64,000 nucleotides of DNA from a virus (IMGVR_UViG_3300029822_000006:3809-67808), one strand, 5' to 3'; shown: positions 3,054-47,562, counted from the first letter of the stretch. The notes: generated from the letters alone by a model not told the origin. Program-made: numbers and translations.

Positions 3054-3848
3054 ATGGTTGTTATTAACATATTAAATATAAAAGAAATATTAGATAAAGT
3101 ACATCCTAAAGATTGTATAGAATTTATGAAAACATTACCTGATAAATGTATAAATCTTATTATAGCAGATCCACCATATAATCAAGTGGTAGATAAAAAA
3201 TGGGATAATCAATGGAAAACTGAACAAGAATATTTAGATTGGTGTATAGAATGGATTAAAGAATGTAGTAGAATTTTAACAGACAATGGTAGTATTTACA
3301 TATGGGGTGGTATGGGAGATAAAACTATTAATTTTGCTAAATTAATTTGTGCTATTGAATATAATATAACTACTTTAACTAGAAAAAATGTAATAACAGT
3401 AAAAAGGAATAAAGGTCGAGGAAGTAATAAAAATTATATGCCTTGTAGAGAAGAATTAATATGGTTAGTAAAAAATCCTAAAGATTTTGTATTTAATAAA
3501 CCATATACTAGTGAATTAAAAAAGAAATATGGATATAAAAATAATAAAGATAAACCAGATTATAAAGTTGCAGGGAATATATGGACAGATATAACATTTC
3601 CTTGGTGGGGTAGTAAAGATGAACCATATATAAATGCTTGTCAGAAACCATTAAAAGCTTGTGATAGAATAATACAAACATCTAGTAATGAAAGAGATTT
3701 AGTTTACATACCTTTTGCTGGTAGTGGTTCTGAAATAATCAGTTGTATGAATAATAATAGATTATGGGTAGCCACAGAATTAGAAGAAAATAGTATAAAC
3801 AATATTATTACACCTAGAATAAATAAATTAAATAATAAGACAAATTGA
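3054..3848 (+). CDS. DNA N6-adenine/N4-cytosine methyltransferase (beta class)
   Basis: Catalytic IIADPPY precedes SAM-binding PFAGSGS; QKP motif. Confidence 0.9.
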   Translation: MVVINILNIKEILDKVHPKDCIEFMKTLPDKCINLIIADPPYNQVVDKKWDNQWKTEQEYLDWCIEWIKECSRILTDNGSIYIWGGMGDKTINFAKLICAIEYNITTLTRKNVITVKRNKGRGSNKNYMPCREELIWLVKNPKDFVFNKPYTSELKKKYGYKNNKDKPDYKVAGNIWTDITFPWWGSKDEPYINACQKPLKACDRIIQTSSNERDLVYIPFAGSGSEIISCMNNNRLWVATELEENSINNIITPRINKLNNKTN

Positions 3849-7883: not shown

Positions 7884-7949
7884 TTATAAATGATTTTTTA
7901 AAAGTCAATAAATGTTAGTTTTTATTTGAACTGAAAGGAGAGAAAATTT

Positions 7950-8558
7950 ATGGAAACCATAGTTAAAGGAAAACATATAAAATATAATTATTCTGTATCA
8001 GATTGGTTTTTTCCATTTTTGCGTACATATAGATTTATTAGTCCTTGGTTTCATTCTGATAAAAATGGAAAAGTAAAACAGTATAATAACAGTATAAATA
8101 TGATACGAGAATTTATAGTTGATTTACAAAAACTTAATATTAAAAAATTTATAAATACAAATAAAATAGTATTAAATTATGAAACTTTTTATAATAGTAA
8201 AGAATTAGATTTTCAATTACATGATAATAATGAATTGTATATTGGAGAAAATATTTATAAAGTTGAAAAGGTGGTAGGTACAGATAAAAATCAAATTATA
8301 TATTATGTAAATAAAGAGTTGAGTATTATTGATAATGTTGAACAATATAAAGAAGTAGAAAATGAAATTAAAAGAATAATAAATATTAAAATTTTTAAAT
8401 TAGAATCATATATTAAAGAATATCAACAAGATATACAGTGTATTATAGAACAGAATAATAAAATGAGAGAAGGTAAATATAATGAAAGTTTAAAAGAAGA
8501 TAATAATAAAGAATCTTGGATAAAAAGAGTTGTGAAAAAATATATAAAGATTAAATAA
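7950..8558 (+). CDS. hypothetical protein
   Basis: ORF with AAAGGAG RBS. Confidence 0.6.
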   Translation: METIVKGKHIKYNYSVSDWFFPFLRTYRFISPWFHSDKNGKVKQYNNSINMIREFIVDLQKLNIKKFINTNKIVLNYETFYNSKELDFQLHDNNELYIGENIYKVEKVVGTDKNQIIYYVNKELSIIDNVEQYKEVENEIKRIINIKIFKLESYIKEYQQDIQCIIEQNNKMREGKYNESLKEDNNKESWIKRVVKKYIKIK

Positions 8559-21863: not shown

Positions 21864-23084
21864 ATGAGGGCAGGGATTTTAATGGGGGAGAAAATCAAGA
21901 TAGTTGTAGATACAAATGTATTAATGAGTGAACCAGAGAAATTATTAAAAGATATTGATGGAGAATTATTAGTTTGTTCAACAATATTGGAAGAATTAGA
22001 TAAATTAAAAATAAGTGATAATAGTAAAAAAGCTTTCAAAGCAAGACAAGGAATTAAATATTTAAAAAATAATAGAGATAAATATAGATTTGTGTTAAAT
22101 GGAGATATAAAGAGTAAAGAATTATTAAATGGTGATTTTGATACCAATAAGAATGATAATAAGATATTAGATGTGTGTTTAAGAGAAAAAGCTAATTTAT
22201 TTACATTAGATTTTAATATGGTGCTTAAGGCTGAAGTATTAGGGATTGATGTAATAGAAGCTCAACAGGAAAACGATAATTACAAAGGATATATAGAAAT
22301 ATCTGGAAATACCGAATATATAAATGAAATATTAAATGATTATTTAAATGATAATAATGTATTAAATTTATTAGAAAATCAATATTTAATAATATATAAT
22401 ACTGATACAGATAAAATTATAGAAAATAAATATTCAAATGGAAAATTAGAGAGATTAAAATTACCTCCAAGTAATGTAATTAAAGGACTTAATATTAAAC
22501 AAAGATGTGCTTTAGATTTACTTATGGATAAAGATATACCAATTAAAATAATAGCCGGAAATTTCGGATCGGGGAAAACTAAAATGGCAATAAAAGTAGC
22601 ATTACATCATGTGTTAGATAAAGGTAATTATGGTAAAATCCTTTTGGTACGCAATCCTGTGGGATCGGGGCAAGAAATAGGCTTTATTAAAGGTGATAAA
22701 GAAGCTAAAATAAAAGAATTTTATACACCAATAGAACAAAATCTTGATGGTGGTGAATATCAAATGCAACAAATGATAACTAAAGAACAAATAGAGTGTC
22801 AGATCCCTTATTACTTAAAAGGAACAACTTTTAATGATACTTTTATGTTAACAGATGAATGTGAAGATTTAGATAAGAAATTATTTAAACTTATAGGTAC
22901 GAGAATAGGTAAAAATTCTTGTGCAGTTTTTACGGGAGATTGGGAACAGGCAGAAACAAAATATGTACATAATAATGGATTATCTCAATTTATACAGTAT
23001 GGAAAAGGAAATAAATTAGTAGGTATAGTCGTATTAGATGAAGATGTTAGATCAGAGGCTAGTAAAGTATTTGCTGATTTTTAA
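21864..23084 (+). CDS. phoH: PIN-PhoH (PhoH2/YlaK-like) protein
   Basis: PIN motifs VDTNVL, LEELD, NDNKIL, TLD; Walker A GNFGSGKT; FTGDWEQ. Confidence 0.88.
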   Translation: MRAGILMGEKIKIVVDTNVLMSEPEKLLKDIDGELLVCSTILEELDKLKISDNSKKAFKARQGIKYLKNNRDKYRFVLNGDIKSKELLNGDFDTNKNDNKILDVCLREKANLFTLDFNMVLKAEVLGIDVIEAQQENDNYKGYIEISGNTEYINEILNDYLNDNNVLNLLENQYLIIYNTDTDKIIENKYSNGKLERLKLPPSNVIKGLNIKQRCALDLLMDKDIPIKIIAGNFGSGKTKMAIKVALHHVLDKGNYGKILLVRNPVGSGQEIGFIKGDKEAKIKEFYTPIEQNLDGGEYQMQQMITKEQIECQIPYYLKGTTFNDTFMLTDECEDLDKKLFKLIGTRIGKNSCAVFTGDWEQAETKYVHNNGLSQFIQYGKGNKLVGIVVLDEDVRSEASKVFADF

Positions 23085-23107
23085 TAATTAAATAAAGGAA
23101 TGTTTAT

Positions 23108-24073
23108 ATGCGAAAATACGAAGAAATATGTGAATATATAAACAACAGAGGTGAATTATTAACTACTAAAGATGAATTTGATATAGAAAAAGATAAACAA
23201 AATAAATTTAATTCAGATGTAAAACTTAAAATAAGATGTATTTGTGGAAATAAATTTTATAAATCATTTGCTGAATTTAAAAATTCTCCGCATTGTCAAG
23301 AATGTGGTAGAAAAAGTATGCAAGAAAAACAACGAACTCCGTTTGTAGATATAAAAAAATGTTTTGAAAAAGAAGGATATCAGGTAATCACAGAAGAGAA
23401 AGATTATAAAAATAATCGTACAAAATTACATTATATATGTCCTTCTGGACATGAAGGAAAAATAGATGTACATAGTTTTATGAGAGGAGTAAGATGTAAA
23501 ACATGTGCAGGATTAAAAATGACGAAAGAGAATACTATGCCTTATGAAAATATAAAATCATATATTGAAGGAGAAAATGGGAATAGATGTAAATTAATTT
23601 CATTTAAAAATGAATATCAAAATACCAAGACAAAATTAGAAATACAATGTAAATGTGGAAATACATTTAAGACTGATTTTATAAATTTTAAACATGAGAA
23701 CAAGAAACAATGTAATGAATGTGGTTTAGAATTAAGAAGTAAAGAAAATAGCCCTAATTGGAGAGGTGGAACTTCATCAGAACGAGACATTATAAAAAAT
23801 AGTGATGAATATAAGAATTGGAGAAGTTCTGTATTTAAAAGAGATAATTATACTTGTCAATGTTGTGGGGATAATAAAGGTGGTAATTTAGAAGCACATC
23901 ATATTGAAAACTTTTCTGAATATGAAGAATTAAGATTTGATATTAATAATGGTATTACTTTGTGTAAAAAATGTCATAATCCAAATCAAAAAGGAAGTTT
24001 TCATCATACGTATGGTACACATAACAATACAAAAGAACAATTAAATGAATATATAAAAAACTATAATAATTAA
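23108..24073 (+). CDS. HNH endonuclease with N-terminal zinc-ribbon repeats
   Basis: RDNYTCQCC...EAHHI...NNGITLCKKCH. Confidence 0.85.
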   Translation: MRKYEEICEYINNRGELLTTKDEFDIEKDKQNKFNSDVKLKIRCICGNKFYKSFAEFKNSPHCQECGRKSMQEKQRTPFVDIKKCFEKEGYQVITEEKDYKNNRTKLHYICPSGHEGKIDVHSFMRGVRCKTCAGLKMTKENTMPYENIKSYIEGENGNRCKLISFKNEYQNTKTKLEIQCKCGNTFKTDFINFKHENKKQCNECGLELRSKENSPNWRGGTSSERDIIKNSDEYKNWRSSVFKRDNYTCQCCGDNKGGNLEAHHIENFSEYEELRFDINNGITLCKKCHNPNQKGSFHHTYGTHNNTKEQLNEYIKNYNN

Positions 24074-25374: not shown

Positions 25375-25403
25375 TTGACAAGTAATCCAAAAGGTAGTAA
25401 TAT
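25375..25403 (+). promoter_or_regulatory. sigmaA-type promoter for the coiled-coil gene
   Basis: TTGACA-17 bp-TAATAT. Confidence 0.7.
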
Positions 25404-25470
25404 TAGAAGTGTCAAGAAGATATACATAAATCAAAGTTTAAAAATTAAATGATTAAAGGAGAGAGATATT

Positions 25471-26100
25471 ATGGAGATGACAGTTACAAGAGGTTTAGCA
25501 GAAATGAAGTTGCTCAAGAAAAGAATAGAAAGTAAGATAAATTCTACACAGTTTATATCAGGTAAAAAGAGATCTGCAAAGAAAATAGATAATGTATTTA
25601 CAGTAGATGAATTTGGAAAAGAAGTAAAAGCAAATTATGATAGTATTATAGATTTAATTGAAAGATTAAAAATTATAAAATCAGCTATTGTAAAATTTAA
25701 TGCAGAACAAACTGTTATTATTGCAGATAAAGAAATGACTGTGGCAGATGCTATTGAAAGAAAGAATAACATAGTATTTGAAAAAACATTATTGAAAAAG
25801 ATGGTAAATCAATACAATAATATTATTGCAATTATAAATACAAGAAATGAAGATATGGAACAAAAGTTAGATAGACAAATACAGACAATGAATGGTGGAG
25901 ACAGTAAGAAAACAGATACGGAACAAACTGAAGCTTTTTCAAAGTCTTATAGAGAAAGTAATTCGTGGGATATAGTAGATCCTCTAAAACTGAAAGATAA
26001 AATAGATAAATTACAAGAGGATATAGAAAACTTTGAATTAAATGTGGATTTTGTATTAAGCGAAGTGAATAGTAGTAAGAAGATTGTAATTCCAGATTAA
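25471..26100 (+). CDS. long alpha-helical coiled-coil protein (possibly DIP1984/septicolysin-like superfamily)
   Basis: MTVTRGLAEMKLLKKRIE...MTVADAIERK...DPL...IENFELNVDFVLSEVNS. Family assignment is from memory and unverified. Confidence 0.55.
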   Translation: MEMTVTRGLAEMKLLKKRIESKINSTQFISGKKRSAKKIDNVFTVDEFGKEVKANYDSIIDLIERLKIIKSAIVKFNAEQTVIIADKEMTVADAIERKNNIVFEKTLLKKMVNQYNNIIAIINTRNEDMEQKLDRQIQTMNGGDSKKTDTEQTEAFSKSYRESNSWDIVDPLKLKDKIDKLQEDIENFELNVDFVLSEVNSSKKIVIPD

Positions 26101-26119
26101 TAATTGAAAATTAAATAAG

Positions 26120-26513
26120 TTTATTGTGGATTAGATTAATGATTTTAGATTCCAAATTCCCTTATTTCTTTTGGGTTAATAAAGAAGCAGAAGAATTAAT
26201 ACTTCGCAAAAGTATTGATGATTTAACTACAGAACAAGTGTACAAAAGTACATATGTTGAAGGTAAATTATCTAATATAATAGTGATATGTTATATTAAT
26301 AAACAACATACATAAAAAGTTCAAGTATTAAAAATCAAATCTAAAATTTTAAGATTCAAAGTTCTTATTTTTTAAAGTTCAGCTAAGGAATATTATGATG
26401 ATAATATTAGCAATTCAAAATTAATAAGCTCTTAGAAATCTTAGATTGATGGTTATAAGTGCTAATTTGGATTAACTTTAAATCAACCACTAAGTTGTTT
26501 AGTTCACAATAAA
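26120..26513 (+). ncRNA. candidate structured ncRNA downstream of the coiled-coil gene
   Basis: 17-bp closing stem 26120-26136/26497-26513 with 4 G.U pairs; five internal hairpins; TCCAAATT/AATTTGGA long-range pairing; AAAGTTC-type repeats. Confidence 0.65.
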
Positions 26514-26536
26514 AAATTGAATATAAAGTGAGTGAT

Positions 26537-26671
26537 ATGAGAGAAATGAAATGTGTAACAGAATTTTGTGGAACAACCAAATATGGATTAGAATATAATT
26601 GTAGTTTTAAAGAAGAAGATTGTGATGTTTGTAGGGAATGTCACGAATATGTTAAAGAAAAAATGGATTAA
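26537..26671 (+). CDS. small Cys-rich protein (44 aa, not in ORF track)
   Basis: MREMKCVTEFCG...NCSF...CDVCREC. Confidence 0.4.
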   Translation: MREMKCVTEFCGTTKYGLEYNCSFKEEDCDVCRECHEYVKEKMD

Positions 26672-47193: not shown

Positions 47194-47562
47194 ATGGCTA
47201 TAGCTATAAGTGATACACAAAAAGTAGCATTAGATAAAATGTGTATGACAGCAAAAGATGTAACTTTAGGTACAGTAATTCAGACATTAGGAACAAATGT
47301 AGATAATCTAGGGGAAATTGTAGATGGTTTAGATACTATTGCTGCAGGCACACATACAGTTTCTTCTAGTGAAGGTACTGCTGAAACTTGTACTATAGAT
47401 ACAGGTAAAACAATTACTGGTTTTATAGTACAAATTTATAGAAGTGGAAAACTTACAACTAATTATGCAGTATCAGCAAGTACAACAAATTTAACAATTG
47501 CTACAAATAGTACAGATTATGTGCTTACAAGTGGAGATGTTATTAATTATATTATATTTTAA
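47194..47562 (+). CDS. putative head-associated structural protein
   Basis: T/S/G-rich; located in the head module. Confidence 0.45.
   Translation: MAIAISDTQKVALDKMCMTAKDVTLGTVIQTLGTNVDNLGEIVDGLDTIAAGTHTVSSSEGTAETCTIDTGKTITGFIVQIYRSGKLTTNYAVSASTTNLTIATNSTDYVLTSGDVINYIIF

What the first reader, a model, noticed from the sequence alone, without database searches (positions are those of the whole stretch)
25375..26513. Best candidate novel system: coiled-coil protein plus downstream ~390-nt structured RNA sharing a repeat motif with the gene's own 5' UTR
Seen directly: a sigmaA promoter (25375-25403), a 209-aa helical protein, then an RNA-like element closed by a 17-bp stem (26120-26136/26497-26513) whose four non-Watson-Crick pairs are all G.U on the + strand. 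Inside are hairpins at 26195-26219, 26238-26253, 26274-26297, 26389-26408 and 26440-26494. TCCAAATT (26151-26158) is complementary to AATTTGGA (26464-26471) in the last loop, a possible pseudoknot. An apparently unpaired tract carries AAAGTTCA (26316, 26374), AAAGTTCT (26358), AAGATTCA (26351) and AAAATCAAA (26331). The 5' UTR has TACATAAATCAAAGTTTA (25423-25440), sharing TACATAAA, AAATCAAA and TCAAAGTT with that tract. Inference: the protein binds this motif, represses its own translation and is titrated or scaffolded by the multi-site RNA (CsrA/CsrB- or type III toxin-antitoxin-like logic). My recollection that this protein family is often followed by similar sequences is unverified.
Basis: partly seen in the sequence, partly recalled or inferred. 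Interest (0 to 1): 0.85.

Follow-up and report, generated by a model that had tools for sequence, protein, structure and literature searches.

The report
Phage heptad-repeat RNA with partner protein
Behind a small helical-protein gene this Clostridium-type phage encodes a real, knotted 394-base non-coding RNA with a row of 7-base repeats; the same gene-plus-RNA pair occurs in hundreds of large phages including model phage T5, and its function is unknown.

Summary
The 209-aa protein belongs to phrog_1491 (T5.085 family; its "tail fiber" label is probably wrong). All 89 homologous loci examined carry the same RNA just after the stop codon.

The RNA has:
- a long closing helix, P1, whose sequence differs between loci but still pairs;
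- a covarying pseudoknot;
- a covarying 3' domain;
- a tract of about seven units with a strict 7-nt period (invariant UYAA cores).

G-U asymmetry places the RNA on the + strand. In T5, RNA-run contigs end at the foot of P1, which hints at a discrete RNA of about 366 nt.

A mini-array of two to three phased cores abuts the gene's own Shine-Dalgarno in 27% of lineages, against 4% of neighbouring genes. The protein is modelled as a homodimer.

My best reading is an RNP: the protein binds the phased heptads and represses its own translation. That is inference, and the function is unknown. The module usually sits in tRNA clusters.

It is not CsrA/CsrB and not a type III toxin-antitoxin. No Rfam family matches this copy; RAGATH-27 appears to cover the 5' domain of some relatives.

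This scan has already found the module at least 42 times on other DNA.

The parts
25375..25403 (+). sigma-70/sigmaA-type promoter TTGACA-17-TAATAT of the unit
   Evidence: 10/12 match; such matches are at chance density here. Conserved in win and L005-L009 while the flanks diverge.
25431..25461 (+). 5' UTR mini-array: UYAA cores at 25431, 25438 and 25445 in exact 7-nt phase, a fourth at 25453, then the SD GGAG at 25458-25461
   Evidence: Phased arrays abutting the SD are enriched in this family's leaders. A 3-core chain alone is not rare in this AT-rich window.
25471..26100 (+). 209-aa helical protein, phrog_1491 / T5.085 family
   Evidence: E 5e-62, full length; 734 phage records; pLDDT 91; homodimer model.
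26120..26513 (+). whole non-coding RNA, 394 nt from the start of P1 to the end of P1
   Evidence: The T5 counterpart has RNA-contig ends at the foot of P1.
26120..26136 (+). P1, 5' strand (pairs with 26497-26513)
   Evidence: an uninterrupted helix of at least 10 bp in 57/66 distinct loci, against 4.2% of non-native combinations.
26151..26158 (+). pseudoknot, 5' strand TCCAAATT (pairs with 26464-26471)
   Evidence: at least 6 bp in 49/57 native pairings against 15.7% of non-native ones.
26159..26187 (+). CCC/GGG hairpin followed by the conserved GGGTTAATAAAGA
   Evidence: Invariant in win and L005-L009. T5 has GGTTAAATAAGA at the same place. A second H-type pseudoknot here is only my inference.
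26195..26297 (+). variable region with three clade-specific hairpins (26195-26219, 26238-26253, 26274-26297)
   Evidence: present in win, L005 and L007; replaced or deleted in L006, L008 and L009.
26316..26381 (+). heptad array: seven contiguous 7-nt units from 26316 plus one more at 26374
   Evidence: strict 7-nt period with an invariant U and A in each unit.
26389..26408 (+). variable hairpin with a compensatory change in relatives
26426..26507 (+). conserved 3' domain: Pc 26440-26444/26490-26494, Pd 26450-26454/26485-26489, Pe 26457-26460/26475-26478; the Pe loop carries the pseudoknot strand 26464-26471
   Evidence: Model R1 scores 69.5 bits, E 1e-12. Pc is 98.5% paired and Pe 93.9% paired, both with many double changes; Pd is only 56% paired.
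26497..26513 (+). P1, 3' strand

Best explanation
This is one copy of a widespread phage module that forms its own transcription unit: promoter, a 209-aa helical protein (phrog_1491, the T5.085 family), then a ~394-nt non-coding RNA starting 19 nt after the stop codon.

Shown:
- The RNA is a conserved fold of the + strand. It has a long closing helix P1, a pseudoknot between the 5' junction and the loop of hairpin Pe, and a three-helix 3' domain.
- It displays a tract of about seven heptads with invariant UYAA cores.

Hinted: in T5 the RNA accumulates as a discrete species trimmed to the foot of P1.

Inferred:
- The protein, a homodimer, binds the phased heptads to form an RNP.
- When in excess, it binds a two-to-four-core copy of the array that abuts its own Shine-Dalgarno and represses its own translation. 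This is the logic of ribosomal proteins that recognise an rRNA mimic in their own leader.

What the particle does is unknown. Its usual position at the head of phage tRNA clusters suggests a role linked to tRNA or translation during infection.
For: Protein family:
- phrog_1491 match, E 5e-62.
- 734 phage records hold a homologue.

Linkage of gene and RNA:
- The median ORF-free gap after the gene is 387 nt across 87 loci.
- The covariance model of the 3' domain hits once, on the + strand, at the same place in 77/89 loci. It has no other hit in 543 kb.
- With filters off it hits at that same place in the other 12 loci.

Structure:
- Pc and Pe are 98.5% and 93.9% paired, with double changes in 8 of their 9 pairs. 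The covariation score is 0.548, against 0.187 for shuffles (0/500 reach it) and 0.10-0.18 for slid partners.
- P1 is at least 10 bp in 57/66 distinct loci, against 4.2% of non-native combinations.
- The pseudoknot reaches at least 6 bp in 49/57 native pairings, against 15.7% of non-native ones.

Strand:
- P1 averages 13.8 bp when G-U is allowed and 6.7 bp when A-C is allowed.
- AAAGTTC occurs in 58/88 downstream regions; its reverse complement occurs in none.

Heptads:
- Autocorrelation is 0.56 at lags 7, 14 and 21, against 0.15 in the troughs.

Expression hint (T5, assembled contigs only):
- In a RIP-seq run, contigs cover 7965-8330 at depth 831-3833. The gene contig has depth 328 and the downstream contig 477.
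- A sequencing adapter follows directly after 8330.
- Contigs of three studies break at 7943-7980.

Autoregulation:
- At least 2 phased cores abut the SD in 17/63 own-gene leaders, against 4.0% of 226 other leaders (Fisher 5e-7).
- At least 3 phased cores occur in 8/63 own-gene leaders and 0/226 others.
- The lineages with such arrays include T5.

Dimer:
- Score 0.66, best of 3 controls 0.00.
- The mark was reached by 20 of 30 proteins solved as pairs of one chain and by 1 of 23 solved as single chains.
- The runs agree in at least 97% of contacts, and the partner's pLDDT is at least 87.
Against: - No test of protein-RNA binding was possible. Synteny and a shared motif do not show contact.
- The protein is near neutral or acidic overall (pI 6.5 here, family median 5.6). 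Only residues 1-44 carry net positive charge (+7).
- About three quarters of lineages lack a phased array in the leader.
- In this AT-rich window, 3-core chains occur 5 times on the + strand against 2.2 expected, so the window's own UTR array is weak evidence taken alone.
- Related lineages are not independent, so the Fisher values are optimistic.
- The RNA evidence comes from assembled contigs, which cannot measure levels or strand.
- Pd is only 56% paired, so part of my 3' domain model is wrong or holds only for a subfamily.
- The protein fold gives no functional clue.
Confidence: 0.5

Rival explanations
1. The RNA works without the neighbouring protein, either as an RNA-only assembly or as a sponge or decoy for a host factor that reads phased UYAA units. 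The gene is linked only because both share one transcript. Any factor that binds the heptads would then also control the gene through the leader array.
For: - Large phage RNAs near tRNA genes with no dedicated protein are known (ROOL and GOLLD; bioRxiv 10.1101/2024.12.08.627333, listed).
- The module sits in tRNA clusters: tRNA genes lie within 2.5 kb in 36/60 loci.
- The protein is not basic.
- No binding was shown.
Against: - The gene precedes the RNA in 89/89 loci across protein identities down to about 33% and hosts from Clostridium to Escherichia. Mere co-transcription would hardly preserve that.
- A host factor common to Gram-positive and Gram-negative hosts would be required.
- The leader array sits on this gene in particular.
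Confidence: 0.3
2. The element is a cis-acting 3' UTR that only stabilises or regulates the mRNA of the upstream gene.
For: It starts a median of 16 nt after the stop codon, and there is no terminator between gene and RNA.
Against: - Conserved, doubly knotted structure of 230-400 nt plus a phased repeat array is far more than mRNA protection needs.
- In T5 the RNA contigs are separate from the gene contig and deeper.
Confidence: 0.08
3. It is a type III toxin-antitoxin-like or abortive-infection pair: a toxic protein neutralised by a repeat RNA.
For: Only the general picture of a protein gene beside a repeat-bearing RNA.
Against: - There is no ToxN/AbiQ/CptN or any PADLOC match, and the fold is all-helical.
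- The repeats are 7 nt, lie inside a closed RNA and sit downstream of the gene.
- The module is carried by virulent phages such as T5.
Confidence: 0.03
4. It is a DNA-level element: an origin with iterons, a packaging site, or a MITE with terminal inverted repeats.
For: An inverted repeat flanks an AT-rich stretch that carries short direct repeats.
Against: - The wobbles are G-U on one strand only (173 G-U against 82 A-C; helices collapse if A-C is allowed).
- Compensatory changes preserve pairing, not sequence.
- A 7-bp period does not fit the DNA helical repeat.
- There is a single copy in its own contig.
- RNA contigs end at the foot of P1.
Confidence: 0.02

Closest known systems
RAGATH-27 RNA motif (Rfam RF03100, orphan candidate sRNA, 86 positions)
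   Same: Its consensus carries the ACCGAAAA...AAAC junction that follows P1 in most relatives. It gives a sub-threshold match (22.9 bits) exactly on the first ~80 nt of the RNA in L039. It probably describes the 5' domain of one subfamily.
   Different: It covers only ~86 of 230-400 nt. It has no P1 partner strand, no pseudoknot partner, no heptad array and no 3' domain, and no protein partner or function is given. It does not match this window's copy at E up to 10. It reaches gathering score in none of the 32 relatives' loci scanned.
Ribosomal-protein autogenous control (a protein binds an rRNA site and a mimic of it in its own mRNA leader)
   Same: The main RNA target and a short copy of its motif next to the SD of the protein's own gene are both present.
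   Different: Binding has not been shown, the protein is unrelated to ribosomal proteins, and the leader copy is present in only about a quarter of lineages.
TRAP with the trp leader and HutP with the hut leader (Bacillus): oligomeric proteins reading phased short repeats (from my own knowledge)
   Same: Short invariant cores at a fixed spacing on single-stranded RNA. HutP's UAG-N4 spacing also gives a 7-nt period.
   Different: There is no TRAP or HutP domain. The fold is a helical dimer. The repeats sit inside a large closed ncRNA, not in an attenuator.
CsrA with CsrB/RsmZ sponge RNAs
   Same: A multi-site RNA and a motif overlapping an SD, so the titration logic is similar.
   Different: There is no CsrA domain. 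The motif is phased UYAA rather than GGA in hairpin loops. The RNA is encoded in the gene's own 3' region.
ROOL and GOLLD RNAs (large ornate phage or prophage RNAs)
   Same: Large, knotted phage RNAs of unknown function that are commonly beside tRNA genes (for this family).
   Different: There is no Rfam match to either. This RNA is smaller. It has an obligatory upstream protein gene and a heptad array.

Membership tests
phrog_1491 (T5.085-like phage protein) | Full-length match to the family profile | tested here: met
   E 5.2e-62, residues 2-207 on profile positions 4-209 of 211. The T5-like homologue is annotated T5.085.
Heptad-repeat RNA family defined here (model R1 plus P1, pseudoknot and array) | 3' domain matches model R1 just downstream of a phrog_1491 gene | tested here: met
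   69.5 bits, E 1e-12 at 26426-26507. The window was in the seed alignment, so this match is partly by construction. Six loci outside the seed also hit.
Heptad-repeat RNA family defined here | P1 closing helix anchored 1-2 nt after Pc, and a pseudoknot between the junction and the Pe loop | tested here: met
   P1 is 17 bp. The pseudoknot is 8 bp, with its 5' strand 15 nt after P1, at the family's usual position.
Heptad-repeat RNA family defined here | Tract of 7-nt periodic UYAA units | tested here: met
   26316-26381.
RAGATH-27 (RF03100) | Covariance-model score at or above the gathering score of 76.1 bits | tested here: not met
   No match in the window at E up to 10. The best relative scores 22.9 bits.
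CsrA/CsrB | CsrA-family protein | tested here: not met
   No Pfam match other than a chance-level SKA2 hit.
CsrA/CsrB | Many GGA motifs in hairpin loops of the sponge RNA | tested here: not met
   The repeated unit is AAAGNUY with a UYAA core in a tract with no supported pairing.
Type III toxin-antitoxin (ToxIN, AbiQ, CptIN) | ToxN/AbiQ/CptN-type endoribonuclease | tested here: not met
   No PADLOC or Pfam match. The fold is all-helical.
Type III toxin-antitoxin | Tandem 34-45-nt RNA repeats upstream of the toxin gene, with a terminator between them | tested here: not met
   The units are 7 nt, lie downstream of the gene inside a closed RNA, and no terminator is present.
Type III toxin-antitoxin | Protein toxic unless the RNA is present | not testable with these tools
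   Needs expression tests.
TRAP / HutP type | TRAP or HutP protein domain | tested here: not met
   No Pfam match.
ROOL / GOLLD | Match to the Rfam models | tested here: not met
   No match at gathering score or at E up to 10.
Tail fibre protein (the label carried by phrog_1491) | Fold or domain of a known fibre or receptor-binding protein, in a structural gene module | tested here: inconclusive
   No fibre among the fold matches. The neighbours are PhoH, HNH and Hsp20 genes, and tRNA genes in relatives. No virion data are available.

The most novel reading that the evidence does not exclude
The protein and the RNA form a stoichiometric particle in which protein dimers line up on the phased heptads of a knotted scaffold RNA. 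On this reading, tRNA-rich virulent phages from Clostridium phages to T5 use the particle to act on host or phage tRNA or translation machinery, for example as a decoy against tRNA-directed host nucleases. That would be a new class of viral ribonucleoprotein.
Probability: 0.12. Interest if true: 0.9.

Novelty: new variant of a known kind. Interest (0 to 1): 0.72.

Why it matters
Model phage T5 and hundreds of other large phages infecting Gram-positive and Gram-negative hosts carry an unannotated RNA of roughly 230-400 nt that is tied to one uncharacterised protein. A conserved RNA-protein pair of this breadth with no known function is rare, and it can be tested directly in T5 and E. coli.

It would also correct a widespread mis-annotation. 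The protein is labelled "tail fiber protein", and the RNA is left as an empty intergenic gap or as small spurious ORFs, such as the 63-aa frame at 26124-26315 here.

The phased leader array offers a simple, testable example of autogenous control in phages.

Tried and rejected
- The search for related loci with the single protein found nothing. The alignment was needed.
- Fold searches gave no informative match. 3kdq (function unknown) scores Z 9.9 at rmsd 8.6, within helical-bundle noise. BFVD returned only uncharacterised viral proteins. The PDB profile search and the protein atlas gave no named family.
- The first duplex script timed out.
- The unanchored 5'/3' duplex test and the free pseudoknot search (non-native pairings reach 6 bp in 57%) discriminated poorly in AT-rich RNA. 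I replaced them with anchored tests.
- Helix P2 of the six-sequence fold (26142-26146 with 26480-26484) is not conserved in T5, so I dropped it.
- The pairings of the heptad tract predicted break in L009, so I dropped them too.
- Literature: no paper was found for T5.085, T5p083 or phrog_1491. The T5 ncRNA searches gave nothing relevant. The PAK_P3 sRNAs are ~100 nt and unrelated.
- The catalogue of 10,006 viral structured RNAs (PMC10690425) may contain this RNA, but its supplements are not held.
- RAGATH names are not in the main text of PMC5737381.
- RNA run X1 gave one 14-kb contig across the whole region, so it says nothing about ends. Parts of T5 without contig cover are no evidence of absence.
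- A regulon of phased arrays elsewhere in the window: the other 3-core chains are at chance level.
- The 63-aa ORF at 26124-26315 is not coding. The region has non-triplet indels and replacements in close relatives.

Full report
**Where the window comes from**

The window is most of a 67.8-kb IMG/VR viral contig estimated 37% complete. All its genes lie on one strand, and it is very AT-rich. Its nearest deposited relative at this locus is Clostridium phage D-1873.

**Checking the observation**

- The closing stem pairs 26120-26136 with 26497-26513 over 17 bp. Thirteen pairs are Watson-Crick and four are wobbles that read G-U only on the + strand.
- The region 26101-26527 folds at -81.2 kcal/mol, z -3.5 against shuffles, and the fold contains the stem and the named hairpins. 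The opposite strand folds nearly as well, so energy alone does not decide the strand.
- The promoter TTGACA-17-TAATAT is at 25375-25403. Such matches occur at chance density in this DNA, and no intrinsic terminator lies between 24700 and 27300. This promoter is nevertheless conserved in six relatives whose flanks have diverged.

**The protein**

- ORF 25471-26100 matches phrog_1491 over its full length (E 5e-62). No Pfam, NCBIfam or PADLOC family matches.
- tblastn finds it in 734 phage records: T5-like, Vi1-like and rV5-like phages, Bacillus phage G, jumbo phages and lactococcal phages. In DT57C it is the homologue of T5.085.
- AlphaFold gives a confident model (pLDDT 91) that is mostly helical with a small sheet. 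No solved structure or named family is informative.
- The "tail fiber" label has no support in its fold or its neighbours.
- A homodimer is modelled. The score is 0.66 and the best of 3 controls is 0.00. The mark was reached by 20 of 30 proteins solved as pairs of one chain and by 1 of 23 solved as single chains. The runs agree in at least 97% of contacts, and the partner's pLDDT is at least 87. This supports dimerisation but does not show it.
- The protein is not basic: pI is 6.5 here and the family median is 5.6. Only residues 1-44 have net charge +7.

**The RNA is a family**

In three annotated relatives the gene is followed by an unannotated gap of 440-1230 nt. Across 87 loci the median distance to the next ORF of 60 aa or more, on either strand, is 387 nt.

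Close relatives align through the whole element, with compensatory changes in the closing stem, the pseudoknot and hairpin 26389-26408.

Iterated nucleotide profiles found two blocks in about 70 of 88 loci, T5-like phages included:
- Block C is a three-helix 3' domain.
- Block B is a repeat tract.

*3' domain.* A covariance model of the domain (R1) hits once per locus, on the + strand, 200-400 nt after the stop, in 77 of 89 sources. It has no other hit in 543 kb. With filters off it hits at the same place in the other 12 loci, with E from 1e-4 to 2.1.

On the model-based alignment:
- Pc is 98.5% paired, and one of its pairs reads AU 26, UA 25, CG 9, GC 4.
- Pe is 93.9% paired.
- The covariation score is 0.548, against 0.187 in shuffles (0 of 500 reach it) and 0.10-0.18 with partners slid.
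- Pd is only 56% paired, so that helix is uncertain.

*P1.* An uninterrupted helix of at least 10 bp (median 14) is anchored one or two bases after Pc in 57 of 66 distinct loci. Non-native combinations of 5' and 3' segments reach that in 4.2% of cases. The sequences are unrelated between clades.

*Pseudoknot.* The junction 9-24 nt after P1 pairs with the Pe loop over at least 6 bp in 49 of 57 loci, against 15.7% for non-native combinations.

*Strand.* P1 averages 13.8 bp if G-U is allowed and 6.7 bp if A-C is allowed instead. AAAGTTC occurs in 58 of 88 downstream regions, while its reverse complement occurs in none.

*Size.* RNA length from P1 to P1 has a median of 333 nt and a range of 232-397. 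This copy, at 394 nt, is among the longest. P1 starts a median of 16 nt after the stop codon.

**The repeat tract**

Block B has a strict 7-nt period. Autocorrelation is 0.56 at lags 7, 14 and 21, against 0.15 in between. Each unit has an invariant U and an invariant A, giving about seven UYAA cores in phase.

In the window the units start at 26316, with an extra unit at 26374. No pairing of this tract survives comparison between relatives.

**Expression**

T5 itself was recovered as L095. Its element runs from 8325 to about 7967 on the minus strand. RNA-library runs from several studies hold the region, but only as assembled contigs.
- In one RIP-seq run, contigs cover 7965-8330 at depth 831-3833, with a sequencing adapter directly after 8330. 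The gene contig has depth 328 and the downstream contig 477.
- Contigs of three studies break between 7943 and 7980.
- These ends lie 5 nt before and 2-3 nt after P1.

This hints at a discrete RNA of about 366 nt. It is not a measurement.

**The leader**

The single 6-mer AAGTTY is only weakly enriched before the gene. The phase of the cores is more telling.

The window's leader has UYAA cores at 25431, 25438 and 25445, exactly 7 nt apart, a fourth at 25453, and then the SD. Against the leaders of 226 other SD-anchored genes in the same loci:
- At least 2 phased cores occur in 17 of 63 own-gene leaders (27%) and in 4.0% of the others (Fisher 5e-7).
- At least 3 phased cores occur in 8 of 63 own-gene leaders and in 0 of 226 others.

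The arrays abut the SD and occur in many clades, T5 included.

Caveats:
- Related loci are not independent.
- Three quarters of lineages lack the array.
- In this AT-rich window, 3-core chains occur 5 times on the + strand against 2.2 expected.

**Context**

tRNA genes lie within 2.5 kb in 36 of 60 loci. All but one are on the same strand, and they often begin right after the RNA.

**Interpretation**

The structured, strand-specific, gene-linked RNA is established. It is an inference that the protein binds the heptads and, through the leader array, represses its own translation. That inference rests on three things: universal synteny, the shared phased motif, and a modelled dimer.

The main rival is an RNA that acts alone or with a host factor. 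A cis-acting 3' UTR, a type III toxin-antitoxin pair and a DNA-level element are all unlikely, for the reasons given under each rival.

**Comparison with what is known**

No Rfam 15 family matches this copy, even at E up to 10.

Earlier notes of this scan pointed to RAGATH-27 (RF03100). It reaches gathering score in none of the 32 relatives' loci scanned. It does give 22.9 bits exactly on the first 80 nt of the RNA in L039 and shares the ACCGAAAA junction. It therefore probably catalogues the 5' domain of one subfamily.

I found no paper on the protein or the RNA.

This scan has reported the same module at least 42 times on other DNA. My results agree with those reports.

Noticed in passing
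L002:4401-4508 (Clostridium phage D-1873): A drum RNA (RF02958) match at 47.7 bits, above its gathering score of 43. It lies about 430 nt downstream of the heptad RNA, in the same unannotated gap.
   Followed up: no
L007:2616-3782: An IS605-type OrfB/TnpB gene (388 aa) sits directly after the RNA. It is absent from L008, which encodes the identical partner protein. This looks like a recent insertion next to the module.
   Followed up: no
L053:3197-3271: A tRNA-Ser(tga) gene lies inside the RNA, between the P1 5' strand (about 3119-3141) and the 3' domain (3400-3478). The variable region can therefore host a tRNA.
   Followed up: no
L011 and L014 (both from IMGVR_UViG_3300024999_000029, 349 kb): One large viral contig carries two copies of the gene-plus-RNA module, about 157 kb apart.
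   Followed up: no
L055:1268-1340: ARAGORN calls a tRNA with anticodon tta (reads UAA) in a phage tRNA cluster next to the module. It may be a suppressor tRNA.
   Followed up: no
window 26528-26671: A 47-aa Cys-rich ORF (two CxxC-like pairs) follows the RNA. The same sequence follows it in L005 and L008 but not in L006, L007 or L009. No family matches.
   Followed up: partly
window 47360-47448: ARAGORN reports a tRNA-Tyr with anticodon ata inside ORF 47194-47562. Rfam's tRNA model does not find it, so it is probably a false call.
   Followed up: no
window 21864-24073: A PIN-PhoH fusion protein gene is followed by an HNH endonuclease gene with a CapR-homology domain, upstream of the module. PhoH is also the upstream neighbour in D-1873.
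   Followed up: no
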